A stretch of 64,000 nucleotides of DNA from Azolla caroliniana (taxonomy: Eukaryota; Plantae; Polypodiophyta): positions 12,028,001 through 12,092,000 of the forward strand of contig JBHGNT010000005.1 of the NCBI GenBank assembly GCA_043228905.1, given 5' to 3'. This document shows positions 4,903-49,865 of this stretch, in pieces; positions within the stretch are counted from its first letter, which is position 1; each line of letters begins with the position of its first letter. The translations under genes were made by a program, and so were the position numbers. The notes under the pieces are model-generated. The model ran no database searches, had not been told where the DNA came from, and saw only the letters and a list, made by a program, of their open reading frames with translations.

Positions 4903-7717
4903 CGATGTTGGAACTGCTCAAGGAATATAAGGATGTTTTTGCATGGTCACACGAAGACATGAAGGGGTTGGACCCAAAGTTTTATCAACACAAAATCAAC
5001 TTATCTACTGACAGAAAACCTGTACAACAGCGTCGGTATCGAATGAACCTGAAATTACGCGGCTCGTGTAAAAGAAGAAATTGACAAACTTCTGAAGGCA
5101 GGGTTCATATGACCGGTAAAGCAAGCAACGTGGCTAAGCCCAATAGTCGTAGTGCCAAAGAAAAATGGCAAAATCCGCGTTTGCGTAGATTATCGTAAAA
5201 TGGCAAAATTGCAAAATTGCAAAATCCCGAAGGACTGTGGGTAGATAGTGTTCTAGTCGACAGTACACCGACAACACTTTTGGCACGCTTGGTGATATGT
5301 GATTTCTTGCAGACAAGCAGCAAGGGATGGATGTCTAGCCGTAGGCGAACCAGAGAACCAACCTGGCAAGATTGACCACTAACGAGGTCCATCACACCCT
5401 AGATAGAAGAGCGTACGAACAAAAACCTCGCCTCAACAACCACGAAGTTTCCTTCCAGGACTACAAGGTGGACCCCACACACACCGAACAACGCGACGTC
5501 AAGCAAGAAGCTCTGTCACCACACGGAAATCGTGGTCTTCCCTTGCCAACCGCCACCATAGTGTCCAGAATGGCCTTCTCTTACCCTCGATTCAATGGCG
5601 AAATAGACGTCGTGAGCCACATCCGGTTGTTCCTGAATGTTTGGAATGGTGCAACGGTTTCCAGAAGCTGAAGCTTATGCCTCGAAGATAGCAGAGTTCG
5701 GATTGACTCTGGATGGTCGAGCAATGTGTTGGCACTCTCAGATGGACCTAGAAGCAATGGCAACCTTCGATCAACTGTAATCAACATTCTTGTGGTTTTT
5801 TCATAGGAGGTTACCACAACGAGAAATCATAGGGCAATTCTATACAATCAAGCAATCACGGAGGGAATCTGTCGCAGATTTTAGTCTACGTTTCCAGAGC
5901 CTACGATGGCAGCTTACACAGGCCCCGACAGATGAGGAGGGTAAGGAGACGTTTTTGGCAGCCCTATATCGACCTTTCAGGACGACCCTTAACACGCATA
6001 GTGGGAAAGGGGAAACAACGGATATGGTTATCGAGCGAGCATTACAACTCGAATTGGAAGAGGAAGATGAAGGATTTTCCATGTCATCGTTACGTCAAGC
6101 ATTGCCTCACGACGAGGAACATTGCTTCTGCCAGGCTATTTAATGTACAATCTGCTTAAACTCAGGGCATTCCGCGGTGGAATGCAACATGTGAATGCAT
6201 TGCCCGATTTGCCACTCAAAGGCGCTACAGTGGAACAATGTGATTACAATATGCTTAACAGACCGACACCCGTCGTACGACGCATGGAACCACAGTGACA
6301 ATATTGCAGGAATGGTCAAGAACGGTAGGAGGATCACTTTCGGTATGCAAACTGATATCAGCGTAGAGAGCGCCCATTCCGAAATCGCCGTAACAGCGAC
6401 CCATATTCCGAGGAAGAAGATCGGGAGGATGACGAATATAGGAATAGTAATCGGTATAATCGAGGGGGGCGTCGTTACGACAATCGCCGTTCGGCAAATA
6501 ATCGAGGGGGATTCAACGGGCCTCGCTCACATGGAAACAACCGACAATATAGGGACCAACAACGTTATGATGAGAGTTCGGAGGATGACCGGCGTCATGA
6601 GTCACGCCGGGACCAACGTCAACCACCCCGGAATAACAGGAGAATGCAGCAAAATCGGGAGGAGCAAGCTGCACCTGTGGATACGAATACACTGCCAATA
6701 GTGGAAAGAGGAGAGTCCAGTGTACATTGATTTGTATGCCAACAACCCGGACATTAGGCGACGCAGTGCCCACGCCGCAAAGGCAAAGAGGTGGCCGTGA
6801 ATACAATCGTGGCAGAAGTAAAACAGGTCACCACACGGCAACAAGCAAAGAACGCGGACTGGGCTAAACAAGATGAGATACGCAAAGCAGCCAAGGACTG
6901 GGTAGAAAAAGCAAAATCTGCAAATGTGGAGTGTATGAAGCAGGAGTCCGCACACACCAGATCGCCAATAGAGGAGGACACGGGATCACCGGACTCCATA
7001 TGGCAAGCATTGGTCGCCCACGAGATAACAATGAGCATGAAGAAGCTTCTCCGACTAGTACCACAATTCCGCTAGGCGGTTGAAAATCGCATGACGTGCA
7101 TACCTAGAGTAGAAGTTTCGGCAAATTTTGCGGAGACTTGTACTGATCCAACAGTCGTCGATCATCACAATCCAGCCATTAAGCTGGTATTACAAGGACA
7201 AGAAATCATGGGATGTATCATTGATGGGGGATCAGGTGTCAATGTCATTAGTATGACCACATGCGCACGATTGGGAATTACAGACTGGGAAGCGTGCCCT
7301 TTTTGGCTCTAAATGGCCGACACCTGTTCTGTTAGACCATTAGGGTTGATTCGGAAATTAGAGATTGTTGTTGGTGGCCATCACTTCGAAATATCGGTGG
7401 TTGTACTCGCATTAGACGCCCCGGGAGCATACCCAATATTGCTTGGCAGGCTTGGTTACGCTCGACCAACATAAAACAAAACTGGCAGCATAATTGCATT
7501 AGTTTCCGATGATGACGGAGCAAAATCCGCGTAACTACCCAGGAAACGACACCACTCACCAAGGGCATAACACCATTATACGTGGAAGACATAAATATGC
7601 TAGGAGTGGAGGATACGGAGTTGGAAGCATACCTTGATGATCACCCACGGGTCGTCCCATTATTCGAAATTGACATAATATAGATTGCCGCGGAATATGC
7701 CTCCACTACGGCACTGT

Positions 7718-8784
7718 CGTGAAGATCCGTCACTACGTGCGGATCGTGAGGTGGAACCGCCGGGGTTCTGGACCGGAAGGAATCGAAGTTTGCACTAGGT
7801 TTAGCGAGAAAATCCTTAAGATAGATTGAAAGAGAGAGAGAATGATATGACGAAAAAGAGATATTGAGATAAAGATTGAACTTTTAACTTTTAGATTTAA
7901 GAGAGAAGATACATCAACAATAGGATTACAAGTTTCTTATTTTTCACAAATGTTTCATTAGTCTCTTCTTGCTTGATTCCTCCACTCTTTTATAGATGCC
8001 CCCATGCATATGATGTATGTGAGGGTGCAAGACATGCACGTAATGCATTAAATGCATGTTTGCCATGTCATCATCTAAGCCCTCATGTATAAGAATTTAC
8101 ATGTAAAATGATCAAAGTAAGACTTTTGAAGATATGATTTGGCTTAGTGGTAAGCCTATTGACTTTTAACTTGGAGGTGCAAGGTTCAAGCCTTGCTCAC
8201 ATCCCTTTTAAAACACAAAATACTACTAGGCTTTTGGTCTTGTATTTACACCGAAAATCTTCAAAACACCATGCACCGCGCGATCAACCGACCGATATGT
8301 CTGTCCGGTCCGGTTCAATCCGATCCCGATTCGATCTTGGTCGTCGCGTCGCTCAATCCGTCCGGTCGGCCAAAACCTTTACAAGTAATTAGGCCACACC
8401 CATTCATCCGGTTAATTTAGCTCAAGTCACCTTGAACATTCTATGATTCACTCATAGACACAAAGTAATAGATTTTGGCCCTGCTTATATACTCTGAGAT
8501 CCTTATTTATCCTGTCTATGCGGGATATCTCGTAGTTTTGTTTTTTCTCTTCTTCTTCGCAAACTTCATACCCACATAACTTGCCACTTAGTTGTTTGTT
8601 TCTTATGTGGTAAAGTGTATTTGAAAGCTCTTGAAGACCTCCATCTTTTTGTACCAAGATATTAAACTAGTATAAAATAGTATCTTCACTATTATTGTTT
8701 CATGTTGTGTGTGAAGAACCACACTCGATTTTGTACATTCCTCGCAATTTTCACACCGTTGCCGAAAATCTCGCAATTTTCACA
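7718..8784 (-). mobile_element. Solo LTR related to the Trp-primed Gypsy D LTR, inserted in pol of element B
   Basis: Termini CGTGAAG...TTTTCACA (TG changed to CG) and 4-bp TSD CTGT/CCGT (7714-7717 / 8785-8788). The host frame TTAP-LKEEA is restored on removal. Same organisation as the D LTR (TATA on minus at ~7990, CATGCA cluster, tRNA-like box). The right junction is duplicated (8741-8790). Confidence 0.7.
8140..8196 (+). promoter_or_regulatory. tRNA(Lys)-like A-box/B-box cassette in the solo LTR
   Basis: TGGCTTAGTGGT ... GACTTTTAAC ... GCAAGG-TTCAAG-CCTTGC. Confidence 0.6.
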
Positions 8785-11700: not shown

Positions 11701-12340
11701 TGTCGCGTTACTACGTGCGTGTGTGGAGAAACGAGGCGGGACCACCGGGGTCTTGAACCGAAGAGCAGGTGATAGAAGGGGAAAGAGAAGGAGAGAGACG
11801 CCCGGTCACGTATGAGCAAAGAAACACAGGGGCGTGGCCCGTCAACACAGAAGACGCGAATGGACACAGAGACAGGGAGAGACAAGTGTTTGTATATTAA
11901 CGAATAACAAGTACACAACAGAACGCGCGAGCGGCTACAACCGAATAGGCCGGCGAACAAATGTCGATGCCTGTTCGTCTGCGCACGAAATGGGGATAGG
12001 ATGGAGGTGCTGCCGGAAGCACACGGGCGTTCCTCGAAGCAGCGCGAGCCTCCCGAAACTTGCAGAGAAGAGCAACAGAGAACAGACAGAGGAGAAGCGT
12101 TTGGTTCCGGTCCGACAACACTTTGTCCTCCTCAATGCGTGATCCCTTCTCCCTGCGTCTCCCTCTCCTTTATAACGTCAAGAAGGGAGCTGTCTCCCTC
12201 ATTTACTTCCTACCTACCGAATCTAACTACCCCGGATCTCTCTCTGTACCTAATTCTCTATTATATACACTAAGAGCGCACACACGTGAAGGGCCGGTTC
12301 ATGTGCGCTATTCACCGATTGCGCCAGGGGACGGTTTTCT

Positions 12341-16555: not shown

Positions 16556-16588
16556 CTTGCTGTCGAGGATTCGTTCTTCCAGGACCTT

Positions 16589-18061
16589 TCATAGGTCCGT
16601 GGTCCTTTTGATCTCCGTGCCCAAACGGTATCCGCCCTTCTTATGGTTATCCCGGGCACTGGACTCACTGGCCTCGATCCGTTTCGGCCCGAATCGGGTT
16701 TCGTATCTCTGTGAGGGTCCGGCCCCTCTGTTCTTACCTACCCGTTTGTCTTCAACCAGAGCCTCGTAGTTCTGGCAAGCTGCTTCGACGAAACCCGTCT
16801 TTTCTTCGACCGGGTCACTCCATCCGGTTACCTCATGGACCCGCTTCTCCGCGCGGTCCGCCTCGTCTCTCTTCAGTCGGGCACCGGCGAGGCCTTCCAG
16901 CACCGTCAGCCGGAATTCGGCTTTGCTCTCCTTCCGGGCCCCGCTGCCCCCGACCCGAATACCGGCTGACGTTGAGTAGTGGACGGTCTCCGCGTGCCGG
17001 GCTGCCGCCTCTTCCATCAGCCTTTTCATTCCTCCTCTCCCGTCGTTTCGGTTCAGGGCCCTCCGGGTATCGCTGGCGTGCACCCGACCTTCCCATAGGT
17101 ACACTACCCGGCTTCTCAAAGCCTCCATAAAGTCCCCGCAGTCTTTCCAGATGTGGCCGACCTCGTCGCACCACATGCACCTACTTCCTGCCGGAGGCCG
17201 TCGGTCACGAGCCTGATCGCCGCCTTCCCTCCGAGCCTGGGCGATTTGGAGATCCTTTACCGCTCGTGTCAACTCCTCCAGAGCTGTTCCCCCGGACGAG
17301 CCTCTGATCACGCCGGTCGAAGGCGAACCGGTTTTGAGCCACTCCCGGGTCTCTTCCCTTTGTGCCCGCGGTATCGGTTTGAGCTTCCTTGCTGCGACAG
17401 GTGCCGCCCCGGTCGCCTCTGTATCAACCCACTCCCACCGTTTGTCAAAACGGCCGCAGACTCTCTTTACCGCGGCCCAGTCGGTCGTCAGCCCGTCTTC
17501 GGTTTCCAATAAGGAGCCAACTTGCCCCCGATCCCGTGTGTCAACCGATTTGACAAACAGTAGGACAGGACTTGTGTCCAGAACAGTCTGATCGAGCGCC
17601 GAAAGGCGCGCAAAGCGTTCCTCAAACTCCCAGAGGATTACCGACGTATTTCTTCCTTTGTTGGGGGAATCCACCCACTCCATGAAGCTCCGCTTCGAAA
17701 GTCGAAGCGCGTCATCCAGCCCGTATTTCTCCAGGAGCCGTCCTTCGAACTCTTCCCAGGTCCGGCTCTCCACCCGGACCTCGAGTACATCCGCATGGAT
17801 GCCTGGCATCGCCACTCGAGGGAATCCGGCAAGACGCCTCTCTTCCGGAATATCCCTCATCAACATCTCCGCCCGATAGGACACCAAATAACTCATGGCA
17901 TCCTTTCCACTGAACCGGCCGATCATACCGACGATCGCCTCAATAGCCCTGTCAAGGGCGCCGGTGCCCTCGCGCGCGCTCACTATCCGGTCCACGGCCG
18001 AAGCCATGGCCTCTGCAAGATCCGACCCCCTCATCTTCTGCTCCTTTGCCGCCTGTTTCAC
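16589..18061 (-). CDS. gag: Gag of element C (zinc knuckle CMWCDEVGHIWKDC), ending at a premature stop
   Basis: 490-aa ORF starting at the PBS, homologous to the element D gag (CMWCDSIDHQKKDC). Confidence 0.8.
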   Translation of the reverse strand: MKQAAKEQKMRGSDLAEAMASAVDRIVSAREGTGALDRAIEAIVGMIGRFSGKDAMSYLVSYRAEMLMRDIPEERRLAGFPRVAMPGIHADVLEVRVESRTWEEFEGRLLEKYGLDDALRLSKRSFMEWVDSPNKGRNTSVILWEFEERFARLSALDQTVLDTSPVLLFVKSVDTRDRGQVGSLLETEDGLTTDWAAVKRVCGRFDKRWEWVDTEATGAAPVAARKLKPIPRAQREETREWLKTGSPSTGVIRGSSGGTALEELTRAVKDLQIAQARREGGDQARDRRPPAGSRCMWCDEVGHIWKDCGDFMEALRSRVVYLWEGRVHASDTRRALNRNDGRGGMKRLMEEAAARHAETVHYSTSAGIRVGGSGARKESKAEFRLTVLEGLAGARLKRDEADRAEKRVHEVTGWSDPVEEKTGFVEAACQNYEALVEDKRVGKNRGAGPSQRYETRFGPKRIEASESSARDNHKKGGYRLGTEIKRTTDL

Positions 18062-18074
18062 GTCGGGTTCACCA
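18057..18074 (-). promoter_or_regulatory. PBS complementary to tRNA-Trp (element C)
   Basis: TGGTGAACCCGACGTGAA; the identical 18-mer occurs at 26101-26118 in element D. It matches the plant tRNA-Trp 3' end (..TTCACGTCGGGTTCA-CCA, recalled from memory). Confidence 0.85.
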
Positions 18075-18717
18075 AAGATGTCGCGTTACTACACGCGTGC
18101 GTGGAGAAACGAGGCGGGACCACAGGGATCTTGAACCGAAGAGCAGGTGATAGAAGGGGAAAGAGAAGGAGAGAGACGCCCGGTCACGTATGAGCAAAGG
18201 AACACAGGGGCATGGCCCGTCAACACAGAAGACGCGAATGGACACAGAGACAGGGAGAGACAAGTGTTTGTATATTAACGAATAACAAGTACACAGCAGA
18301 ACGCGCGAGCGGCTACAACCGAACAGGCCGGCGAACAGATGTCGATGCCTGTTCGTCTGCGCACGAAATGGGGATAGGATGGAGGTGCTACTGGAAGCAC
18401 ACGGGCGTTCCTCGAAGCATCGTGAGCCTCCCGAAACCTGCAGAGAAGAGCAACAGAGAACAGACAGAGGAGAAGCGTTCAGTTCCGGTCCGACAACACT
18501 TCGTCCTCCTCAATGCGTGATCCCTTCTCCCTGCGTCTCCCTCATTTACTTCCTACCTACCGAATCTAACTACCCCGGATCTCTCTCTGTACCTAATTCT
18601 CTATTATATACACTAAGAGCGCGCACACGTGAAGGGCCGGTTCATGTGCGCTATTCCCCGATTGCGCCAGGGGACGGTTTTCTTCACGACACCGTTAAAA
18701 AAGAAGAAGAAGGGAAG

Positions 18718-22100: not shown

Positions 22101-22551
22101 GGCCCTCTTCTAATATAATTAATAGATGGGGCCCATTTCCGTGTTTCATTCCCATTCTTGTGATTCAAGACTCGGTTGTGGTTGAGCAATATTCCACGCC
22201 ATTCTTATCGATCTGGTATCAGAGTGAACAACACAAGAAATGGAAGAATCGTTCAACGACATGTTCAAGCTCACCGGCTCCAACTACTCAATGTGGAAGT
22301 CGAAGATGAGGGATATGCTAATAGTTAAAGATCTTTGGTTGCCGGTTCAGTTCGGGGACAAGAGACCAGACAAGATTGACGCCACAGTGTTGGACGTGAT
22401 GCACATGAAGACGACGGCATACATCTGGTGTTTCATCGACATGAGCCTGTACAACAACTTCAATGAAGAAAGTAAGGCTCACAAAGTCTGGGAGAAGATC
22501 GGCATCATGTTCCAGAACAAGAATGTCGTTAATCGGGTTTTTGTATTCCGA

Positions 22552-25500
22552 TATCGGGGTAGTTGTGGTTCATTCGGCGAAGTCACGGGGACTAAGGTTA
22601 AGGGGGAGTTGAAGGAACTTTTATAAGGCTTGCGCACAAATGTTAGGAAGATTAAGGATAAAAAGAATAAGAGTTTAAAGTAATGTGTGTGAGAGAGAGA
22701 CAAGTATAGAAAAAGCATAGAGACAATGTATGATTCAAGAAGCAAGATAGAGACAAAGTATGATTTAAGGAATTAAAGTATATGATATGAACATGATGTA
22801 TATTACGAATACAAGATTTTACCAACTTTACAATGCTTGATAGCAAGATGAACCCTTTCTCTACCAACTCTTGATTCGAACCCTTGACTCCAACTTGGAA
22901 ATGAGAGGTTCTCCACCCAATGAGCTAGTCTTCTTTACTTGATTGTATTATTTTCTCACTCTCTCCTGATTGATCCCTTTTGTTTTCCTTTCCCCTCTTT
23001 TTATAAGTATTGACATGCATATGGTAATGTGTAGGAGCATGGCATGCATGTAATGCATGCATTACATGTGATGCATGATCGCCATTTGGCGCACATGCAT
23101 TGCATGTGATGCATGATAGCCATCATGCTCATTTGAGCTCCCATGTATGAAAATATATATGGGATAAGTATAATTATGGATATAACTTTAAAACAAATGA
23201 CCTAGCTTTGTGCTTGATATACAAGGTTGAGGGTTCAAGTCCCTCAATTTTACTTAATACAATATTTAAGTTTATTCTTATATAGTGAAGCACATTCTTG
23301 ACAACATTTCTAAAAACAAATAGCCTACCCTAGTGGTATATACATTGTGCTTGGTTTATAAGGTTGTGGGTTCAAGTGTTTGAAATATTATTGAATTCAA
23401 TATTTAAATTTATTTTTATGTCGTGAAGCAAATCCTTCACGACACCCACCCCCTCCTATTTTCATCCCTTGTATTGTTTCCGGAGTAAACACATGTCCTA
23501 CCTTTCGTGGGTCTCTGATCATTGGCTCTGTGGCTGCTTCTTTGATTGCCTTTTCACTATCCCCTGGAAGTGGAGCAGCAATAGGACGAACCTTCTTCTC
23601 CACTGTCTTGTATTTTGTTAGTACATGTGCTTCATGATCCTTTCGAGCAACTTCTTCAATGACCTCGTACATCTTGATTGAATGGACAGGAACTTGGATT
23701 TCGTTGTCTTCTTCCATTGCTTCCAAATGAGTTATTGTATCTTCAAAACTTAATTCTTCAAACATATCCTGAATTTCTTCATCATCCTCTATTAATCCAG
23801 AACACTTAAAGTACTCGAAAGCATTTTGTATTTTATTATTATTTACTTTTAGTATAAAAGTAGCACCATTAGATGAGATTGTACAAGGAATATCTTTATT
23901 TACATTATTATTTATGGGGTTTTCTTTTATGTTCGGGCTATCACAGCCCCTACCTGTAAAAGCCCTATCTAAAAATCCTGGGAAAACTCTTCATCCATCT
24001 CTTGAATTGGATGTTCCCTCAAGCATTCTTTGTTTCTTTCATGGTTGGGCCTCACGGTTAAGAATTGGACATTCTTTCTTCCATCTTGACTCTTGATTCT
24101 CGCGAAAGCCGAACCATCATCAATAACCTTTGTTTCCATCCTCACTGCAGTGATGTAGGGCTGACCAAGGATGATGGGGTAGGTTGATCGATCCTGCACA
24201 AAGAAATGTTGATTCACCGACACATCACCAATTGTTACCTTCACACTAGGACATGCTCCAAATAGATCCTCCGTAGTCTCTGTGGTAGCTCTTATTTTCC
24301 ACCCATGATTCTTGTCGATCGGCCACCGTCCTCGAGCGTAAAATTCCGATGACATCATGTTAATCTCGGATCCATGATCGATCAAAGCAATACATGGAAT
24401 TTGCTGCTCCCCAATTTTTGCAGGTGCCTCCGTTGTTGCTCGAGCCTAATGGTCCCTTGTATAGTGACTCCTATCCCCTTCATGGACGCCAACATCATTC
24501 TGGTTTTTTACACTTGCAGCATTGATGGTGCCACCATACAAATCTTGGAGTGTTGTTGCACACCCTCCTGTAATTTCCTCCGTCACTTGTCTCTTCCTTC
24601 TAATAATATCTATGATAACTTCATGAAATTCTTTCTTTGCTATACCCAACACTTCTCTTAAAGTAAATTCTACCTTACTATTCAGTATTCTTGTTTCTAG
24701 TACCTTTTTTATATCCGTCGTTGTTTCTATGTCTGAGGCAAGCTTGAAAGATGGGCATGTCTTTCCTTTTACTTTATCAGCTTCCTTTGGTTCAGTAGCA
24801 CCCTTTTCCATCTCCCTTCTCTTTTGTTCTCGTGTCTCATGTCTCTTTGTCGGATCAGTTTCCTTAACTCTTTTCCGCTTCTCTTCGACTAGCACATCTT
24901 GTGCATTCACTTGGGCGAATGCTGATAGCGCGTCTACTGGATCATTCCATCCAGTGAAGTTGCGTATTTCATCTCCCGCTCTTTTTAATTCATCCACTCG
25001 AACCTTCCCTTTTCTTGCATAATCCATCACATCTTGCCAAAAGTCAGATCCACCATATGAGTCTTCTATGCGCAACCCTAAGGTTGCCACGGATTGTATT
25101 GCTTGAGTCGTTTCTCTCTCGGCATCTTCCATTAGCTTTTTCATTCCTCCTCGCCCGAAGTTGAGTTGAAGTGGTTGTCGAGTCTCTGTCGAGTGAATCT
25201 TGCCCTCTTGATAGTAGATTTTATTATGATTAAGAGCATCCCTATGCTCTTGACAATCTTTCTTCTGGTGGTCGATACTATCACACCACATACACCTTCG
25301 GACCATTCCACTTCCCTGCCTTGATGAAGTCGAGCTTTGTCCCGATTCTAGCTTCGTCACTTTGATCGACAAGTCTTTCATACCTTTCACCAATTCGTGT
25401 AAGAGTGATTCTTCTACTTTCTTTTCTCCCGACTCGTTCCTTGTTTCTTCATCATTTCTGTCGGGCAACTCCATAAACCATAACTTTCTTTTGCAGAAAT

Positions 25501-27044
25501 GGGCGCACGCCCTTTTCACCTCCTCCCAGTCTTCGGTAAGTCCACTTGGACTATTCTGATCTTCTAAAAGCATTCCCAAGTCCTTCCTATCTTTAATATT
25601 AGTAGCTTGTAGAAACAATATTACTTTATCTGGCACTATTATATTTCTATCTCGAACATTTAGTTGCTCAAATCTTTCCGAAAACTCTTTTAATACTTCC
25701 AAAACACTTAAATGTTTATAAGACTCTACCCAATCCATAAAAGTTCGCCTTGTCATACTTGACATATCGTTGAGGTTGTATTCATTTAGCAATGCTCTTT
25801 CGAAAGTCGCCCATGTCTAATGTTCCCTCTGTAGCTCATGGATCCTTTCTTGTAGCCCAATCGCAGCTATTCGACTAAAGCTATTAATTTTTGCAGCTTC
25901 GTCAACACCATGTTTAAGCATTTCTTCATTATAAATCTTCAGAAATCTTGTTAAATTTATACCTTCGAAGATTCCTACTTGTGCGAGAATATTGTCGACG
26001 ACTTTGTCGATGCTGGCCATCATCCCTTGTTCCCGCATCACTCGTTCCATCATCGTACACATAAGCCTCATTTGCTCCTCCATTTCTCCTCGTCGCCGCC
26101 TTCACGTCGGGTTCACCAAATGTGTCGGGGTAGTTGTGGTTCGTGCGGCGAAGTCGCGGGGACTAAGGTTAAGGGGAGTTGAAGAAACTTAACTTTTAAT
26201 AAGGCTTGTATGGTGATGTTAGAAAGGTTAAGAGTAGCAAGAAGAAGAGTTACGAGTAATGTGTGAGAGAGAGAGACGAGAATAGATAGAAGATAGAGAC
26301 AATATATGATTCAAGAAACAAGATAGAGACAAAATATGATTTAAGAAGGAAGATTGAGACAAAGTATGAATCAAGAAGCAAGAATATTTGATATAAACAT
26401 GATGAAAAAGACAATATTTTACCAACTTTACAATCTTTGATCACAAACTGAACACATTCTCTACCGACCCTTGATTTGAACCCTCGACTTCAACTCTGAG
26501 AGACAAGACACTTCCCCAAATGAGCTAGCTTCTTTGCTTGATAAATTATCTAATTTCTTGCTTTCTCTTCCTTGATTCCTTACCCTATTTTCCCCTTGCC
26601 CCTCTTTATATAAGTGTTGCCATGCATATGGTAATGTATGGGAGCATGGCATGCATGCAATGCATGAGTTACATGTAATGCATGATCGCCATTTGGCGCA
26701 CATGCATTGCATGTGATGAATGATGGCTATGTACGAAAATAGATATGGGATAAGTATAATGATGAAAATGCATTCTAAAATAACTAACCTAGCTTAGTGG
26801 TGTATGCTTGGTGCTTGGTATACAAGGTTGAGGGTTCAAGTCCCTCAATTTTACTTAATACAATATATACCTTCATTCTTATATCATGAAGCACATTTAT
26901 TACACATTTTTACAAATAGATAGCCTAGCCTAGTGGTATGTACATTGTACATCGTTTATAAGGATGTGGGTTCAAGTCTCTCAAATATTATTAAATACAA
27001 CATTTAAGCTCATTTTTATATCGTGAAGCACATTCTTCACGACA
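22552..27044 (-). mobile_element. Non-autonomous Gypsy element D (gag-pro only, tRNA-Trp PBS), nested in Copia E gag
   Basis: LTRs 22552-23444 and 26123-27044, and 4-bp TSD CCGA/CCGG (22548-22551 / 27045-27048). The host frame VFR|KLVRLQY is restored on removal. gag 24446-26083, protease IDHGSEINMMS ~24385; no RT, RH or INT. Confidence 0.9.
26790..26846 (+). promoter_or_regulatory. tRNA-like Pol III A-box/B-box cassette in the D LTR
   Basis: TAGCTTAGTGGT (A box), then GAGGG-TTCAAGT-CCCTC (B box in a perfect T-arm), then TTTT. Further copies at 26926-26982, 23203-23245 and 23326-23380 (+), and 22873-22927 and 26473-26527 (-). Confidence 0.65.
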
Positions 27045-30000
27045 CCGGAAGCTAGTGAGGCTCCAGTACCAGGATGGCTCCAGTATGGCGGAGCACATGA
27101 ATACCTTCCAAGGGCTAATACACCAAGCAACCTCATTGGAAGTACCTCTCGCCGATGAGGTACTCATATTACTCTTGCTTGGTTCCCTCTTGGATAGCTG
27201 GGAGACACTAGTTGTCACGTTGGGCAACACCGGGCCAGAAGGAAAGCAGTTGTCCCTAGCAAGGGTAAAATCAAGCTTGCTAGATGAAGAAGCTTGCCGG
27301 AAGGACCGGGAGTCCGGAACCGATCCGAAGGCCTTGGTCACGGAAGATGACCAAAACCGGGGAGGAGGCCGGTATCGGAGTCCCCAAAACCAGGACAAAT
27401 CGCGGACAAGGTCGAAGTCAAGGGGAGGCCTACTTGCTTCTACTGTGGGAAGCCGAGGAACTTCCAAAAGAACTATTGGCATTTCTGAAAAGAGAAAGAA
27501 ACCAACACTACCGATTCGAAGAAGAGTTCGGACCGGGGAGGCCCGGATTGGAAAGGAACGTCGGCAATTGCGACAAGTGAAGAGGAACTAATGCTCATTA
27601 CCGAGGAGAATGAGTTAAACCTTGTCGGGGATGAGACAACGTGGGTTGGCGAATCCAGAGCGTCATTCCACCTGACACCGGATCGGAAATGCTTCTCATC
27701 CTACATAGCTGGTGATCATGGCTATGTAGGTATAGGGAATGAAGGCACATGCCAAATTATCGGCATAGGAGATGTGTTGTTGACGACATCAACCAGATGC
27801 AAGTTGCTGATGAAGGATGTCCGACGCGTTCCAGAGGTTCGACTGAACCTAATATTAGCCGGTTGGTTAGATGATGAAGGCTACACAGGTATCATCCGGA
27901 ATGGAGTCATGAAGTTCAGCAAAGGGAGCCTAATAGTGGCTTGAGCCTAGAAGGTCAACACATTGTACTTGATAAATGCACGGATACGCAGGGAAGAGGT
28001 GAACGTAGCATCCGACATTGTCGGTGAGCTGTGGCATAAAAGACTATGTCACATGAGTGAGCCGAAGACAATCTCATTCTGGTGAAGGACGTGCAACTTG
28101 AGAAGTGCACTTATTGTCTTGTCGGCAAGAAAAACCAAACCTCCTTCTGGTCAAGACCACCGATGAGACAGAATGCACCACTGGAGTGGGTGCATACCGA
28201 TGTGTGTCAAGTGGACACGAAATCACATGCCGGATTGCAATACTTTGTGACGCTCATAGATGATCACAGCCGGAAGCTGTGGGTCTCACCGTTGAAGACG
28301 AAGGATCAGGTGCTATCCGTCTTCAAGGAGCTCCATGAGAGAGTGGAAAGAGAAATAAACCAGAAGCTAAAGGCAATTTGAGTGGACAATGGAGGAGAAT
28401 ACTTGGGGCAGTTCGAGGAGTACTGTCGGTTGAAAGGAATCCGGCTCGAATTCACCGTGCCGAAAACGCCGGAATTGAACGGCCTGGCTGAACGGATGAA
28501 CTAGATCATGATGGAGAGATTCTGGAGCATGTTGGCACAAGACGTTTTGGGCTGAGGCGCTGACGACGGTGACCTATGTGATAAACAGATCACCCTTAGC
28601 ACCCTTGGAAGGAGACTCACCTCAGAAAGTATGGACCGGTAAAGATGTATCTTACCGGCATCTGAAGGTGTTCGGGTGTCTCGCATATGTGCATGTTGCG
28701 AAGGATAAGAGAGCAAAACTGGATCTGAAGTCCTGGCCATGTATATTCCTTGGATACGACGATGATGAGTTTGGTTACCGGGTGTGGGATTTGGTTGACA
28801 AGAAGGTGTTCTGGAGTCGGGACATAGTCTTCATGGACAACAAGACCATTGCAGAATGGGAGTCGGAGAAGAAGGTGATGAACTCCGGACCATCAAATGA
28901 AAACCGGCTGGAGGGCACAAGGACTTACCCGGTTGAAAACTGGATGACAGTCGACGAACTGGCCGGATACGGACAAGAAACCGAACCGATCGACAAAGAA
29001 AAAGAAGAAGAAGAAGAAGACACCGGAACCAGACAAGATCCCGATTCGGATTCGGATTCGGAACGAACGAAGGAACCGGTTGTAAGAAACCACAGACGAA
29101 GATATCCTTTCCGAGAGAGATGAGCCCCCTGGAGATTTCCGGATGCAGAGCATGTGTTGCTAACCGATGAGGGGGAGCCAAAAAGCTTTGAAGAAGCAAA
29201 GAGGGACACCCACAGCCGCAAGTGGTTGAGTGCCATGCAAGACGAGATGGATTCCCTGCATGAGAACCACACGTATGAATTGACGGATTTGCCGAAGGGA
29301 AAGAGGTCACGCCGGAACAAGTGGGTGTACAAGATAAAACGAGGAGATGCAGGAAACTCACCAAGATACAAAGCCCAGATCGTGGTGAAGGGGTTCCAGC
29401 AGAAGAAAGGAGTGGACTTCGATGAGATCTTTGCCCCGGTAGTGAAGATGACATCCATCCAGACGGTATTGGGCATAGCGGCAAGCATGGACCTTGAGGT
29501 AGAGCAACTGGACGTCAAGACGGCGTTCCTACATTGCGACCTCGAAGAAGAGATCTACATGCATCAACCGGAAGGATTTGAGAAGAAAGGGAAGGAGCAC
29601 CTGGTGTGCCGGCTAAAGAAGAGCTTGTACGGACTGAAGCAAGCTCCCCCGGCAATGGTACCGGAAGTTCGACTCCTTCATGACCGACCAAGGGTACCAC
29701 AAGACGCAGGCCGATCACTGTGTTGTTTGTGAAGAAATTTGATGGAGGAGATTTCCTGATACTCCTCCTGTATGTGGATGATATGTTGATCGTCAGACGA
29801 GACCAAGGCAAGATTCAGATGCTGAAGAAGGCTCTGAACCAAACCTTCTCAATGAAAGCCTTGGGTCCGGCAAGACAGATATTAGGAATGCACATCATCC
29901 TGGACCAGACAAAGAAGCTGTTGTGGTTGTCACAGGAGTACATGACAAAGGTGCTCCAACGGTTCAATATGTCAGAGGTGAAACCAGTCGGATCGAAACT

Positions 30001-41225: not shown

Positions 41226-41492
41226 TGTCATGATATGGCAACACTCGAACCCATGACCTTATGTTACATGGGTCGAGCTCTTGAACATTAGACTATATGT
41301 TATAATACAAAGGATATAATTTTTATTAAAGTTTTACTATAGAAAAATAATGTATATTCTAGATTTCTTTGGAACATTATAGAAACTTCAGGAGTACTCC
41401 TGAGAACACTATAAAAGGAGGCACAAGGCATTATTTCTAAGCCTCCTAGCCATCCTTGTATATTATTTTCGCATAACATATCACTGTCATCA

Positions 41493-41570
<78 letters not shown>

Positions 41571-41574
<4 letters not shown>

Positions 41575-42961
41575 ACACTATTTGTTTGGTCTATGCATTG
41601 ATGAATTGGAAGAAATGGTTACCAAGTTTGCAAAGGAAGAATGTGTTGAAGAAGCTGCTATTGGGAATGTTGTGATTATGATTTTGCTATATGCAGATGA
41701 TGTACTGTTTTTTGCAAATACTTTAGGAGATGCACAAAAGCTTATGAAGGCATTGGAAAAAATTTGCATGCATACTAAATTAAGTGTCAATAGCTCTAAA
41801 ACAAAGATTATGCTTGTGAAGAGCCAAAACAGAGATAAACCATGCATTATGTACAACAATGAGCCACTTGAATGTGTGGAAAGCTTCAAATATCTTGGCC
41901 TTGCAGTTCCTTCAAATCATAGATGGAATGAATGTGCTACACGCCGCTTAGAGGTGGGTAAGCAAGCATACTATGCATTTGAGAACACATGCAATCTTGG
42001 AGATATTAAGTGTTGGGTCCTCAAGAAATATCTTTTCGACACTTTGGTGACACCAGTTCTTCTCTATGGGGTGGAAGTATGGGGCGGTAGCATCCCTAAA
42101 TCTATGTAGAAAGAGTTTGAAAATGTCCACAAACATTTTCTTATAAAGTTTCTACAAGTTAAGAAACAAACGCCCTACACCCTCCTCCTTGAGACAGGAT
42201 CGCTTCCCGTTGAGATTATGGCCATGGAAAGGGTTGTTGAATACATGCTTAAGGTTCAAAAAAGTCCCTCACATCGACTTCCTAGAATTGCGTGGGAAGC
42301 AAGCAAAAAGATACAAAAGACGCATAAAAGCAAAATTGTGTGTTCCAGTTGGATGCAAGATATAGAAAAATGGTTTGGTAGATGGGATGTGAGACACTTG
42401 CTTCATGATGCATCATTAGATTCCTCTATAAATGAGGCCTTTTTGCAACGCCAATGTGTCATGACATAGGACAAATGTGGAGACTCACGCTTCACACATT
42501 ATACTACACATGTTGCACCTAACTACAAAACCATATTCTTTGCGGAACGGGGAAATTGTACACATCGATACATATAGAGCCCATACCGTTATCTGCCATT
42601 CGAACCATTGCTTCCATGTGACTTAGCTCACATGCATTGCGATGTGAAACATGGCGTTGGGGCACAATTGATGAGAGTGGTCAGTTATGCACACTTCACC
42701 CTAAACAAGTTTGCGAGTCTGAGTATCACACTTTAATACAATGCTCTGCCTTTGATCATATTCGACCATGCTTTCCACATCTCTTTGACCGAGCCCAATC
42801 CTTGCATGAATTCCTCTCACAACCACAATGTGCACTCTCGATTGCAACATTCATTGGTAAAGTTCTTGAACATCGAGAGTCACTACTCACTTTCACACGT
42901 ATCACGTGAAATGTAATATTTTTTGTCTCATAGGTCATATTTGACCTCCGAAGAGGATAAT

Positions 42962-43962: not shown

Positions 43963-46900
43963 TGTCAGAAGCAGTACTAAGACGGAGAAGTACTGTCAAG
44001 AACAATTCTAAAATAGAGAAAGAATTAGTACTAAAAGATGAGGATTAGTACTAAGGGAGGTGTAGAACTCTCGAGAGAATAGAAAGAGTGAGAGAGAGAG
44101 TGAGGATAACAAAAGATAATATATTATGTTAAGGGAATATACAATAGTAGCTAGGAGGCTTAAGACTGGCGTTGAACCGATTTGGTTCGAAATAATGCCT
44201 TGTGCCTCCTTTTATAATGTTCTCAGGAGTACTCCTGAAGTTTCTAGAATGTTACTAAATGAAAATAATATCCTTCATATTACAACATATAGTCTAATGG
44301 TCAACAGCTCGACCCATGTAATATAAGGTCATGGGTTTGAGTCTTGCCATATCATGACACTATCCTCCCTTTAAAACGACGAGTGTCACGAGTCCTTTTG
44401 GATTGAGGACCCGGTTTGTCTGGATATTGATGATGGAAGTCTTCAAGAAGAGCACGAGCATTGGTCACATTCTCTATTGGTTCCCAAGTACGCTCGTTGG
44501 GACTATATCCTAGCCAATCGAAAAATAGTACAACTTGTTGCGAACAATCTTGGAATCAAGGATGGCGGAAACCTCGTACTCAGGTTCATCTTCAAGCTCG
44601 ATCGGGGGTGGAGGTTGTTTAATACGACCTGGGATGGTGCTGTCTTGATAGGGTTCGAGGAGAGAACTATGAAACACCGGATGTATCCGAAGTTGTGGAG
44701 ATAGATCGAGATGAAAAGCGACATCATTAATTTTTCCAATAATATGGAAAGGACCTAATCACCGGTAATCCAACTTCTTGCATGGGCGAGTAGTCTTGAT
44801 GTGTCGTCGTAGTAGCCACACCCGATCTCCAATGTCAAAATTGGATGGAAGCTGATGACGATCTGCGTAAAGCTTGTGTGTTTATTGAGCTTGTTGTAGA
44901 TGAGTAGATAAATCCGTTTGTATCTTACATTGCTGCTCCAAACGATCCTCTGCACAAGGATTTGTGGGTAACTCTAGGGTTTCAAATACACACCATCGGG
45001 GGTGGCAACCCATGTAAGCATAAAATGATGTCACCTTTGTCGATGACTGGACAGAGTTATTATATGCAAATTCGGTGAAGTGGAGAATATCCGCCCACTC
45101 ATCTTGATGATAGCTTAAAAAGCACTGAAGATATTGCTCAAGCGTTTGATTTGTTCATTCTGCTTGGTCGTCTGTTTTGTGGGTGGTAGCCGGAGGAGAG
45201 GTTACAAGTGACCTTAAGCATTTTAAAGAGGTGCTTCCAGAACTTCGAGACGAGCTGGGGTTCACAGTCGCTGATGGTACTATCGGGAACATGATGATGA
45301 CATACTTCATGCATGACAATTTTGGGGGTTTCTTCACTTGAGATTTCCTTAATACATGGTAGGAAATGGGCCATCTTTGTATATCAATCTACTACTGTTA
45401 AGATCGCATCGAATCCCTTAGAGACCGGAAGATCTGTGATGAAATCTAGGGCAATGGATTGCCATGGCTTGCTTGCTTGGAATTAGTAATGGTTCTAATA
45501 AACCATATGGATGATGCTTTGGCAGTTTTGCTCTGCAACATGTATCACAAGTGTGAACAAAATCTTCAACAAATTGTCGCATATGGGGCCACCAGAATGA
45601 TCGTTGTACTAAATTATGTGTTTTAGTACTACCAAAATGCCCAATTGTATATGTGTCATGACAGTTTTGGACTACGTGAAGGCAACAAGTACTATTAGGA
45701 ACATACAAGAGTTTCGTAAAGAATAATAATTCATCATGACATTCGAATTGTCAATAGTTCGTACCTGGTTGTTGCGACTATGAACAAGATGCTCGAGAGG
45801 GATCAATTTGTGCTAGAATGTCTTGAGCGAAAACATCTGTCTTCAAGTTCTCATGTATGGTATCGATAACGTGGGAATCCAAGGGCATACCGAAGACTTG
45901 CGTTGATTGCAGTCGTGCCAGTCCTAAGATTACTTGCTTTTGGTTATCGAAAGTCGGCTCACCGGGACGAGGTGCTAGATACGAACATCGTGATAATGCA
46001 TCTGCCTTCCCTTGTTGCTTCCCTGGACAATATGTAATTTTGAAGTCGCATGGAAAGCCACAAGATGTAGCTTTTCATACCACCTTGTTGAGATAGAATG
46101 TTACCCAAGGCGAACTCCGACACGTCTGCTTCAATGATGAATGGTTTTTCTGGATCAACATGAGGTAAAATAAGGGCTAATGTAAATTCCTATCCATGAA
46201 GCAAGAGTTGGCTCCGGAATCTAAGAGTGCTAAGACATGTATTGGAGGAGTACTTTTAGTACTAACCATTACTTGAGCTAAGAACACATTACTAACTTGC
46301 TTAGAGGAAATGGAACCATTAATGGGCTACACAAATCTAGGGTTGTCCAACCAAACAGCTCCTATTTTGGCTGGACTTAATCGTTTAACTCTTCTTCTAG
46401 TTGACTAAGTATTTCAAATTTCTGTGAAAGGCTTGGGCTATTAGGACTATCAGACGCACCTAGAGGAATAGACTCGGGTTTAGTACTATTAGTACTAGCG
46501 GTTATTTGATTTACTTGCCTTTTCGGTCGATGGGGGCAATTCACTGCAATATGCCCCGGTCCACGGCAATAAAGACATAATCGATTTGCCCTACGTCGCT
46601 ACTTTTCTTCTTCCGATAGTGGTCTGTGACGACGTGTGGTGTCGATTTCCATTGTAGTCGGAGTATTTGTTGGAGATGTATTGAATGATTCCCTTGGGAA
46701 AGGCTTTGCTATGATTGAAGCGTAGGTGGGCTCCGATCTTGTCCGCGGCATTTGGAATTGACGTTCTGAACGTCGTTCGAAGAGGCGATTATTGCACCGC
46801 ACTGCACGACTGATTGCTTCTGTCAATCACTTTGGCTCCTCGGGGAAAGTTAAGAGTAAATCTTTAACATCATTATGCAGGCCAAAACGAAATTGCTCCA

Positions 46901-48055
46901 TTAGTGCCAGGTCATCCCAAGGAATATCGATGGCGAGAAGACGGAAATCCGTAGCATAAGCCGAGGCCAACCGCTCACCTTGGCGCAATCTTCGGATTTT
47001 GTTCATTGTTGTTCTAACACTATCGGTATCTCCAAAACAGGCTTTAAACTCGGTAATAAACTCTTCGAAATTATTTAAGAAGGGAGAGTTTTTTTCTAAC
47101 AAGGGGGCAAACCATGCGAAAGCCGTGCCACTAAGTAGAGTGCCTACTAGTCCCACATGTGATGCATCGGTGGGATATCGAGAAGGATGCATTTGAATGA
47201 CTAATCATACCTGATTAAGGAATCCTCCAAACTACGATCATGTTCCATCGAATTTCATGGGAAGGTTGATCTTGGGTTCTTTATGAATCCCTTGCGTACT
47301 GGGTCCTTGTTGTTGCATCGCTACTAAGGTTGCTTCGAGTTGTTGCACGCGTACCACTAGTTCCCCATGTTGTTGTTGCGTTAGCTGTTTTTCTAAGGAG
47401 ATTTGTTGAAGATCCCACAACAACCCTTGATTTTCTTGTTCCAAAGCAATGAACTTCTCTTTCAACATTGCAGCTCTGAGAAAACAGATTGATATTCTTG
47501 AGCGCTAACAGTTTGCCATAGTATGAGAGAAAAGAGGAATAAGAGATTAGTATGAAGGGGGAGAGAAGGAAGGAGAGGAAAATCGGTTCAAACTGTCAAG
47601 AGCAGTACTAAGACATAGAAGTATTGTCAAGAACAATACTAAAACAGAGAAGGAATTAGTACTAAAAGATGAGGATTAGTACTAAGGGAGGTGTAGAACT
47701 CTCAAGAGAAGGAAAGAGTGAGTGAGTGAGAGAGAGAGAGAGAGAGAGAGAGAATGTGGATAACAAAAGATATATATTATGTTAAGAGGGAATATACAAT
47801 AGTAGCTAGGAGGCTTAAGACTGGCGTTGAACCGATTTGGTTCGAAATAATGCCTTGTGCCTCCTTTTATAGTGTTCTCAGGAGTACTCCTAAAGTTTTT
47901 AGAATGTTCCAGAGAAATTTGGAATATACATCAATTTTCTATAGTAAAACTTAAATGAAAATAATATCCTTCGTATTACAACATGTAGTCTAATGGTCAA
48001 GAGCTTGACCCATGTAACATAAGGTCATGGGTTTGAGTCTTGCCATATCATGATA
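43963..48055 (-). mobile_element. Chromovirus element J (same family as I; PR and RT largely deleted), nested antisense in I
   Basis: LTRs 43963-44359 and 47594-48055, and TSD ATTAC/ATTAT. The host frame HDGL|LFFKKLLY is restored on removal. gag 47520-46500 with CLYC..GH...C, integrase plus chromodomain 45708-44420, PPT 44360-44376. Confidence 0.9.
47986..48042 (+). promoter_or_regulatory. tRNA-like A-box/B-box cassette in the chromovirus LTR
   Basis: TAGTCTAATGGT ... GGGTT(C/T)GAGTC. Copies at 44290-44346 (+), and 41239-41295 and 49437-49493 (-). Confidence 0.55.
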
Positions 48056-49716
48056 ATTATTATTCTTTAAGAAACTCTTGTATTTTCCTAATGATTCTTG
48101 TCGCCTTCGAGTAGTCCAAAACTATCATGACACATATAGCTTGGCATTTTTGTAATACTAAAACATTAGATTTAGTACAACGATCATTCTGGTGGCCCCA
48201 TTTGCGAAAATTGGTCGAAGATTTTGTTCGGACTTGTGATACATGTTGCAGAGCAAAAATGCCAATGCATCATCCATATGGTTTATTAGAACCATTACCA
48301 ATTCCAAGCAAGCTGTGGCAATCTATTGCTCTAGATTTCATCATAGATCTTCCAGTCTCTAAGGGATTCGATGCGATCTTAATAATAGTAGATCGATATA
48401 CAAAGATGGCCCATTTCTTGCCATGTACTAAGGAAATCTCAAGTGAAGAAACTGCCAAAACTGTCATGCGTGAAGTTTGTTGGCATCATGGCCTTCCTAA
48501 TAGTATCATCAATGACCATGGACCCCAGTTCGTCTCGAAATTCTGGAAGCACCTCTTTAAAATGCTCAAGGTCACTTGTAACCTCTCCTCCGGCTACCAC
48601 CCACAAACAGACGGCCAAGCAGAACGAACAAATCAAACACTAGAGTAGTATCTTCGATGCTTTCTAAGCTATCATCAAGATGATTGGGCGGATATTCTCC
48701 ACTTCGCCAAATTTGCGTATAATAACGCTATCCACTCATCGACAAAAGTTACACCATTTTATGCTTATACGGGTTGTCACCCCCGATGGTGTGTATTTGA
48801 AACCGGAGAGTTACCCAGAAATCCTTGCATAGAGGATCATTTGGAGCGGTTACGCAAGATACAAGCAGATTTATCTACTCACCTACAACAAGCTCACCAA
48901 ACACACAAGGTTTACGTGGATTGTCACCGGTTTCCATCTAGTTTTAACATTGGAGATCAGGTATGGCTACTACGACGACACATCAAGACTACTCGCGCAT
49001 GCGAGAAGTTGGATTATCGGCGATTAGGTCCTTTCCGTATTATCGGAAAAATTAATGATGTCGCTTTTCATCTCGATCTACCTCCACAACTTTGGATACA
49101 TCCGTTGTTTCATAGTTCTCTCCTCGAACCCTATCAAGACGGCACCATCCCAGGTCGTATTAAACAACCTCCACCCCCAATCGATCTTGGAGATGGACCT
49201 GAGTACGAGGTTGCCGCCATCCTTGATTCCAAGATTGTTCGCAACAAGCTCTACTATTTAGTCGATTGGCTAGGATATAGTCCCAGCTAGCGTACTTGGG
49301 TACCAATAGAGAATGTGACCAATGCTCGTGCTCTTCTTGAAGAATTCCATCATCAATATCTAGACAAACCGGGTCCTCAATCTAAAACGACTCGTGACAC
49401 TCGTTGTTTTAAAGGGCGGATAGGGTCATGATATGGCAAGACTCGAACCCATGACCTTATGTTACATAGGTCCAACTCCTGATCATTAGACTACATGTTG
49501 TAATACGAAAAATATTATTTTCATTTAAGTTTTACTATAGAAAACTGATGTATATTCTAGATTTCTCTGGAACATTCTAAAACCTTCAGGAGTACTCCTA
49601 AGAACACTATAAAAGGAGGCACACGACATTATTTTGAACCAAATTGGTTCAACGCTAGTCCTAAGCCTCCTAGCCATCCTTGTATATTCTTTTCACATAA
49701 TATATCAATGTCATCA

Positions 49717-49768
<52 letters not shown>

Positions 49769-49865
49769 TCTCTCGAGTGTTCTACACCCTCTTTTCCTCT
49801 TACTACTAATATTCATCTCTTAGTACTAATTTCTTCTCTGTCTCAATGTTATTCCTGATAGCAAG

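What the first reader, a model, noticed from the sequence alone, without database searches (positions are those of the whole stretch)
22552..27044. tRNA-like Pol III promoter cassettes built into Gypsy LTRs (D family: three per LTR, both orientations)
Seen: each D LTR carries two tandem ~137-bp U3 units antisense to the element. The clearest has A box TAGCTTAGTGGT, then ~30 nt, then a perfect T-arm GAGGG-TTCAAGT-CCCTC, then TTTT (26790-26852); the second unit is at 26926-26982, with counterparts at 23203-23245 and 23326-23380. A third, sense-oriented cassette lies downstream of the TATA (TAGCTCATTGG...GGTTCGAATC; 22873-22927, 26473-26527). Being in both LTRs, they were part of the replicating element and are not later SINE insertions. 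Established: A/B boxes bind TFIIIC, and tRNA genes/B boxes act as heterochromatin barriers; Cassandra TRIMs carry 5S Pol III promoters in their LTRs. Inference: a tRNA-based counterpart that brackets the Pol II promoter as an anti-silencing insulator or small-RNA source. This is the best candidate for an undescribed system here.
Basis: partly seen in the sequence, partly recalled or inferred. Interest (0 to 1): 0.85.

Follow-up and report, generated by a model that had tools for sequence, protein, structure and literature searches.

The report
tRNA-type promoters inside retrotransposon end-repeats
The end-repeats of three jumping-gene families from two distant lineages, in what is probably a moss genome, carry tRNA-gene-like promoter boxes facing away from the element's own promoter, and these likely act as docking sites for the host's tRNA-transcription factor that would keep the promoter open.

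Summary
The boxes are real: 3 exact A+B pairs at tRNA spacing in the window, none in 300 shuffles. Element D is a truncated Phygy-like Gypsy copy. Relatives fetched by an anchor outside the boxes carry the same cassettes: antisense unit in 5 of 5 copies reaching the U3 edge, sense unit in 8 of 9. Corrections: three per LTR is not fixed (one or two antisense units), one window unit lacks its A box, and the perfect T-arm and cloverleaf are not conserved. The antisense B box is conserved above its surroundings; the A box only weakly. New: the same outward-facing cassette sits at the U3 edge of a second Phygy-like LTR (boxes 18-19/21 identical, spacer 11-12/32) and of a Tcn1-like chromovirus; a sister family lacks it. 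Best reading: captured tRNA-type promoters kept as TFIIIC sites beside the Pol II promoter; binding and function are untested. tRNA-like LTRs are known (Helenus, foamy-virus Pol III cassettes), and this scan noted similar cassettes before in probably fungal LTRs. The antisense, repeated layout in protein-coding plant elements was not found in print.

The parts
22552..23444 (-). 3' LTR of element D (Phygy-like Gypsy)
   Evidence: terminal TG mutated; 4-bp target duplication CCGA at 22548-22551
26123..27044 (-). 5' LTR of element D
   Evidence: target duplication CCGG at 27045-27048, inside a Copia gag
26101..26118 (-). primer-binding site, identical to that of the sister element; tRNA-Trp type (identity recalled, fits Phygy table)
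23456..26090 (-). broken gag-protease region; RT, RNase H and integrase missing in this copy
   Evidence: DUF4100 hit in 24446-25816; 95.4% identical to L011, which runs on into an open RT frame
23445..23455 (-). polypurine tract remnant joined to pol at a 9-nt microhomology
   Evidence: comparison with L005, L006, L008, L011
26790..26852 (+). inner antisense cassette of 5' LTR: A box 26790-26800, B box 26833-26842, T4 26849-26852
26926..27017 (+). outer antisense cassette of 5' LTR: A box 26926-26936, B box 26969-26978, T5 27013-27017
23203..23252 (+). inner antisense unit of 3' LTR: B box 23232-23241, A box deleted
23326..23417 (+). outer antisense cassette of 3' LTR: one mismatch in each box, T5 at tRNA position +95
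26473..26527 (-). sense cassette of 5' LTR (A 26527-26516, B 26482-26473), no T stem
22873..22927 (-). sense cassette of 3' LTR
26605..26612 (-). likely Pol II TATA box, 178 bp from the inner antisense A box and 78 bp from the sense A box
   Evidence: sequence; conserved in most copies
7715..8268 (-). LTR of a second Phygy-like family with one antisense cassette (A 8140, B 8183) at the homologous U3 position
   Evidence: no partner LTR found in the window
47594..48053 (-). Tcn1-like chromovirus LTR with antisense cassette in the outermost 70 bp of U3 (A 47986, B 48030)
43964..44358 (-). second Tcn1-like LTR with cassette (A 44290, B 44334)
49424..49860 (+). third Tcn1-like LTR, after SH3/chromodomain frame and PPT; cassette on - strand (A 49493, B 49449)
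41226..41580 (+). fourth, partial Tcn1-like LTR; cassette on - strand (A 41295)

Best explanation
Three Gypsy families in this genome carry tRNA-spaced A and B boxes at the outer edge of U3, pointing away from their TATA box, and these boxes are likely captured tRNA-type promoters kept as binding sites for the host factor TFIIIC, which would hold the element's Pol II promoter open against surrounding heterochromatin. Shown: the boxes, their spacing, their place 115-180 bp upstream of the TATA box in three families, conservation of the antisense B box, loss of the cloverleaf, and that Pol III could not make the genomic RNA. Inferred: origin from a tRNA gene or tRNA-derived SINE, at least two separate captures, TFIIIC/TFIIIB loading, a nucleosome-poor zone or barrier, and a benefit to transposition. 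In family D a short RNA of about 95 nt ending at a T-run inside the LTR would be a by-product. D adds a second site in the leader, so its promoter is bracketed.
For: Exact tRNA geometry, 3 exact pairs against 0 in 300 shuffles. Copies anchored outside the boxes keep them: antisense 5 of 5 reaching the U3 edge, sense 8 of 9 spanning. B box 0.50 parsimony steps per site against 1.25 spacer, 1.17 downstream, 2.75 upstream, permutation P 0.001, 11 units; pairwise identity 0.91 against 0.72. Sense cassette changes half as fast as its flanks, 10 copies. Between D and the LTR at 7715 the boxes match 18-19/21 and the spacer 11-12/32 at the same U3 position and spacing. Same orientation and edge position in a chromovirus. 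No shared RNA fold points to DNA-level use. T4-5 at +90 to +96 in 7 of 8 D units, upstream 72-84% AT. 0 of 18 listed variant places inside cassette spans fall in a box (P 0.012, chosen after the fact). TFIIIB/TFIIIC barriers in yeast are cited in PMC9540200.
Against: No binding, chromatin or RNA data. The antisense A box is hardly better kept than the spacer (1.00 against 1.25 steps, P 0.05; identity 0.67), is off-consensus at position 10 in L005, L006 inner and L008 inner, decayed in L004 and L009, deleted in one window unit. 10 of 132 windows are as conserved as the B box, and the whole outer 100 bp is conserved, which integrase binding could explain. Sense boxes are no better kept than their spacer. 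The sister family at 11701-18691, RT 70% identical, has no cassette and 91.5% identical LTRs, so it is dispensable. Over the whole LTR, 0 of 40 variant places in boxes gives only P 0.07, with 143 places hidden; some X12 contigs have a 3-nt insertion in the outer A box. The plant barrier review gives tRNA barriers only for yeast and animals in the passages seen. Few copies, of unknown species.
Confidence: 0.45

Rival explanations
1. Passenger relic: tRNA-derived SINE heads or tRNA pieces landed in ancestral LTRs and are carried along; they look conserved because they lie next to the integrase-bound end and because CpG-free B boxes mutate slowly.
For: A box decays nearly like the spacer; unit number varies; sister family does without. 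The outer 100 bp is conserved as a block. Kojima proposes SINE insertion as the origin of Helenus.
Against: Boxes and spacing persist while the spacer falls to about 35% between D and the LTR at 7715; same edge and orientation in two distant clades; the inner unit keeps its B box 200 bp from the LTR end, in the longest identical run (48 bp) between the window's LTRs.
Confidence: 0.25
2. Small-RNA gene: Pol III makes an outward RNA of about 95 nt, folded into one or two hairpins, which acts in trans (decoy, siRNA or miRNA source), as foamy-virus LTR cassettes do.
For: A box, B box, AT-rich upstream and a T-run at +90 to +96 in 7 of 8 D units; a non-tRNA hairpin between the boxes is 84% paired over 10 units, 14 of 500 shuffles reach the overall pairing.
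Against: That hairpin was read from these same sequences, has one double change per pair at most, and RNAalifold finds no pair with changes on both sides. The three families fold differently. The Tcn1-like cassette has no terminator inside the LTR.
Confidence: 0.15
3. Landing pad: the cassettes load TFIIIB and attract Pol III-targeting elements (as Ty3 does), steering insertions into LTRs.
For: Lead from earlier notes on other genomes. Five of 11 distinct outside copies (L001, L002, L003, L007, L011) break off within about 40 bp of the inner A box; L003 has a Copia-type LTR just after it.
Against: The breaks are at different places and of different kinds; L011's is not an LTR end; none of the 10 cassettes or units in the window has an insertion just upstream. 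A landing pad does not explain why the host element keeps the boxes.
Confidence: 0.07
4. The motifs are Pol II enhancer or integrase/RT signals that merely resemble A and B boxes.
For: Conservation extends over spacer and downstream sequence.
Against: Both boxes occur at the exact tRNA spacing in four different cassette types; 0 such pairs in 300 shuffles.
Confidence: 0.05
5. Helenus-like self-transcription: the sense cassette is the promoter that makes the element's genomic RNA.
For: Sense orientation near the start of the transcript; CAA at -10 to -3 in both window copies.
Against: T5 at +126 in the 5' LTR and 13 runs of four or more T before the 3' LTR; the family encodes RT and has a TATA box upstream.
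Confidence: 0.03

Closest known systems
Helenus / TRIMp3 (Kojima 2024, PMC10886601; parts 1-4 of 6 of the text and searched supplement passages read)
   Same: tRNA-like sequence in LTRs, conservation centred on boxes A and B, no working cloverleaf, not the primer tRNA
   Different: Helenus is 311-1263 bp, non-coding, and is thought to be transcribed from its cassette (sense in the one plant family; 5-bp target duplication). D is a protein-coding family with RT, 4-bp duplication, two of three cassettes antisense; the paper expects autonomous partners to lack such LTR sequence.
Cassandra and Ajax TRIMs (as described in PMC10886601; primary Cassandra paper not read)
   Same: Pol III promoter captured in an LTR
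   Different: 5S-derived, sense, drives the element's own short RNA
Foamy-virus LTR Pol III miRNA cassettes (Kincaid 2014, PMC3993851; passages read)
   Same: A/B-box Pol III units with terminators inside the LTR of a full-length, Pol II-transcribed retroelement
   Different: Those make defined miRNA hairpins with shown expression; here no conserved fold across families and no RNA evidence
TFIIIC barriers and tDNA insulators of yeasts and animals (PMC9540200 passages; Simms 2008, Noma 2006, Van Bortle 2012 seen only as titles in reference lists)
   Same: B-box-centred sites beside a Pol II promoter at a chromatin edge
   Different: Host-owned fixed loci; here the site would be carried by the transposon, in a plant, untested
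Phygy and Tcn1 clades (Neumann 2019, PMC6317226; passages and supplement rows read)
   Same: D fits Phygy by 4-bp NCGN duplication and primer site; the other family fits Tcn1 by chromodomain and self-priming layout
   Different: No LTR cassette is mentioned in the passages seen; placement by RT tree not done

Membership tests
Helenus (TRIMp3) | tRNA-like sequence with A and B boxes in the LTR | tested here: met
Helenus (TRIMp3) | short (under about 1.3 kb), non-coding TRIM | tested here: not met
   4.5-kb copy with gag; relative L011 has an open RT frame
Helenus (TRIMp3) | cassette able to transcribe the whole element by Pol III | tested here: not met
   two of three antisense; 13 T4+ runs follow the sense cassette
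Helenus (TRIMp3) | 5-bp target duplication in plants and fungi | tested here: not met
   4 bp, CCGA/CCGG
tRNA gene | cloverleaf recognised by tRNA finders | tested here: not met
   ARAGORN default 0; no Rfam tRNA match at E up to 10; D stem 27.5% paired
Pol III type 2 transcription unit | A box, B box at tRNA spacing, AT-rich upstream, T-run terminator | tested here: met
   D antisense units; Tcn1-like units lack an internal T-run
Pol III type 2 transcription unit | Pol III occupancy or transcript | not testable with these tools
   needs ChIP or raw small-RNA reads
TFIIIC barrier site | conserved B box | tested here: met
   (antisense); sense B box only as conserved as its spacer
TFIIIC barrier site | TFIIIC binding and block to silencing | not testable with these tools
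   bench test
Later SINE insertion | own target duplication, tail, copies outside LTRs | tested here: not met
   units shared by independent LTR copies; the tandem repeat duplicates the LTR end, not a SINE; genome-wide search not possible
Phygy (non-chromovirus Gypsy) | 4-bp NCGN target duplication | tested here: met
Phygy (non-chromovirus Gypsy) | tRNA-Trp primer site | tested here: inconclusive
   site present and shared with sister family; its tRNA identity is recalled, not checked against a host tRNA
Phygy (non-chromovirus Gypsy) | placement by RT/RH/INT tree | not tested
   no reference set held
Tcn1 chromovirus (family at 41-50 kb) | chromodomain and self-priming site | tested here: met
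   Chromo E 3e-5, just under Pfam cut-off; primer site complementary to the region 30 nt after the TATA box

The most novel reading that the evidence does not exclude
Autonomous plant Gypsy elements from distant clades have repeatedly captured tRNA-type promoters at the outer edge of U3 as portable TFIIIC barriers or activators, letting them stay transcribed inside heterochromatic transposon islands and scattering thousands of Pol III factor sites over the genome.
Probability: 0.3. Interest if true: 0.82.

Novelty: new variant of a known kind. Interest (0 to 1): 0.55.

Why it matters
How chromovirus-type elements that insert into heterochromatin still get transcribed is open; RLG1 of Physcomitrium is both concentrated in heterochromatic islands and highly expressed (PMC7466625). 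A transposon-borne TFIIIC site would be a simple anti-silencing device, and plants lack well-shown sequence-defined barriers (PMC9540200). One base change in the B box tests it. It would also mean many extra Pol III factor sites and false tRNA calls in such genomes. If the boxes are relics, the finding only extends Helenus-type capture to long elements.

Tried and rejected
No whole genome is held, so no genome-wide copy set. ARAGORN default and Rfam found no tRNA; at lowered ARAGORN score only 8132-8205 and 23189-23253 pass at 90%, and lower settings give noise. Cloverleaf pairing: no excess over shuffles, 329 of 500. Primer-tRNA origin: the T-stem side implied by the primer site differs from the cassettes, and the chromovirus self-primes; rejected. 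CAA motif: present in 2 of 8 D antisense units, 0 of 5 in other families; not conserved. Scans of viral contigs and prokaryote genomes found nothing; no Tcn1-like cassette in the 12 loci. No RNA holder listed; nothing on expression follows. Depth per bin was not used to rank parts. A fuller variant table for the cassettes was not obtained, so the 143 unlisted places stay unseen. PWM hit at 9703 lies in an RT frame and was treated as chance. L012 was dropped as a near-duplicate of L007 (98.7%); L001, L002, L003, L007, L010, L011 were left out of the antisense counts because they end or break before the B box; L003, L006 do not span the sense cassette, L001 lacks its B box by deletion and is counted as the miss. 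Three papers were not held.
Full report
Setting. The window is a pile of nested plant LTR retrotransposons. Element D lies on the minus strand from 27044 to 22552, inserted in a Copia gag with a 4-bp duplication CCGA/CCGG. Neumann et al. list 4-bp NCGN duplications and mostly tRNA-Trp primer sites for Phygy, and place Phygy and Tcn1 in moss or club-moss (PMC6317226, passages and supplement rows). The host is therefore probably a moss (inference). No whole genome is held.

What D is. The window copy holds a broken gag-protease region (DUF4100, E 3e-8) and no RT. Locus L011 is 95.4% identical over all 2676 internal bases and runs on into an open RT frame; the window copy joins pol to the polypurine tract at a 9-nt microhomology. 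So D is a deleted copy of a protein-coding family, not a TRIM. Its LTRs are 84% identical over 861 aligned bases with 14 gaps, and each resembles L011 in different parts, so they are mosaic and do not date the insertion.

The observation. All five complete cassettes and one bare B box are at the stated places. The box consensus I used is recalled; Kojima gives the same core letters, and the plant promoter layout is from PMC13578239 section 20. Exact A+B pairs occur 3 times in the window (8140, 26790, 26926) and 0 times in 300 block shuffles; exact B boxes 10 times against 1.7 expected, 7 of the 10 in three LTR families and one more in a fragment at 52582. Spacing reproduces tRNA numbering exactly. 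The unit at 23203 lacks its A box (14-nt deletion). The 137-bp repeat is a duplication of the LTR's outer end, including a worn copy of the terminal inverted repeat.

Outside copies. A 24-letter anchor from the middle of U3, outside all boxes, gave 12 metagenome loci, 11 distinct. Their LTRs are 65-85% identical to the window's. Five reach the U3 edge and all five carry the antisense unit: once in L004, L005, L009, twice in L006, L008. Nine span the sense site and eight keep it (L001 has a deletion). Contigs from four runs of four studies under four organism labels lie on the LTR, and listed pieces cover antisense units in each.

Is it selected? Over 11 antisense units the B box shows 0.50 parsimony steps per site, the A box 1.00, spacer 1.25, downstream 1.17, upstream 2.75; permutation P is 0.001 for B and 0.05 for A; 10 of 132 windows match the B box, 43 of 131 the A box. 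Pairwise identity is 0.91, 0.67 and 0.72 for B, A and spacer. Over 10 sense copies A, spacer and B all show 1.0-1.1 steps against 2.1-2.6 in the flanks. Flank alignments are gappy, which inflates their counts. A T4-5 run lies at +90 to +96 in 7 of 8 D units. In the run contigs none of the 40 listed variant places falls in the 64 box bases (P 0.07; within cassette spans 0 of 18, P 0.012, chosen afterwards), with 143 places unlisted. Verdict: good evidence for the antisense B box and the sense block, weak for the A box.

No tRNA fold. ARAGORN and Rfam call no tRNA. At cloverleaf positions the D stem is 27.5%, the anticodon stem 57.5% and the T stem 74% paired, no better than shuffles. The perfect T-arm is peculiar to the window's inner unit. 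A different hairpin between the boxes is 84% paired, but RNAalifold finds no double change.

The layout recurs. The LTR at 7715-8268 has a U3 homologous to D's and one antisense cassette at the same place and spacing; boxes match 18-19 of 21, the spacer 11-12 of 32. Four LTR copies of a chromovirus with a self-priming layout carry an antisense cassette in the outermost 70 bp of U3, the LTR's terminal CA falling at tRNA positions 76-77. In all three families the cassette faces outward, 178, 146 and 115 bp from the TATA box. The sister family at 11701-18691 (RT 70% identical to L011's) and the Copia LTRs have none at the threshold used.

Mechanism. Pol III cannot make the genomic RNA: two cassettes point away and 13 T4+ runs follow the third. 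Boxes kept while spacer and fold drift point to a DNA-binding role. TFIIIC binds A and B boxes and loads TFIIIB on AT-rich DNA upstream; upstream DNA here is 72-86% AT and lies between cassette and TATA box. I infer an open zone or barrier protecting the Pol II promoter (0.45). Rivals: passenger relic (0.25), small RNA as in foamy viruses (0.15; PMC3993851 passages), landing pad (0.07), look-alike motif (0.05), self-transcription (0.03). None of binding, transcription or barrier action is shown.

Prior art. Helenus is the direct precedent, and its author notes many Repbase LTRs with tRNA-like parts but studied only those under 1 kb. D fails the Helenus tests of size, coding and orientation. 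Searches for tRNA-like or TFIIIC sites in long plant LTRs returned nothing closer; a paper on Physcomitrium transposon expression has no mention of tRNA or Pol III. The library omits most subscription papers and Repbase. Earlier notes of this scan describe tRNA-like cassettes in probably fungal LTRs, one judged a passenger, two a landing pad; none on this family.

Verdict. A real, partly selected feature; a new variant of Pol III promoter capture by LTRs, notable for antisense orientation and recurrence in protein-coding elements of two clades; function open but directly testable. Interest 0.55.

Noticed in passing
window 23445-23455; L005, L008, L011: A GGG-coding stretch of pol resembles the polypurine tract, and the window copy lost RT to integrase at that microhomology; L005 and L008 are shorter derivatives lacking about 500 more bases. 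The sister family shows the same resemblance.
   Followed up: partly
window 22552-23444 and 26123-27044: LTR pair only 84% identical and mosaic although the internal part is 95% identical to a relative and the target duplication is kept: suggests intermolecular strand transfer or gene conversion.
   Followed up: partly
window 47571-47593 and 47820-47845: Chromovirus primer site is complementary to the sequence about 30 nt after its TATA box, the self-priming layout known for Tcn1/Tf1.
   Followed up: partly
window 52570-52620: Fragment that starts like an LTR, with an exact antisense B box at the same distance from the end as in the chromovirus and a shortened A-B spacer, then runs into Copia RNase H sequence; possibly a fourth family.
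   Followed up: no
L007 415-511: U6 snRNA copy (Rfam 83.6 bits) joined to a D-like LTR.
   Followed up: partly
window 23030-23125 and 26625-26725: Palindromic ATGCAT-rich block just upstream of the TATA box, highly conserved in D and present in the LTR at 7715; may be the main enhancer.
   Followed up: no
L003 about 395-415; L001, L002, L007, L011: Five outside copies break off near the inner A box; L003 has a Copia-type LTR just after it.
   Followed up: partly
window 33448-34023, 41580-42900, 34050-36100: Pieces of a non-LTR retrotransposon, two as a 576-bp inverted pair at 96%.
   Followed up: no
window 37450-39600: Worn hAT-like transposase region (label from reading the translation layout, no Pfam hit for the one frame tested).
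   Followed up: no
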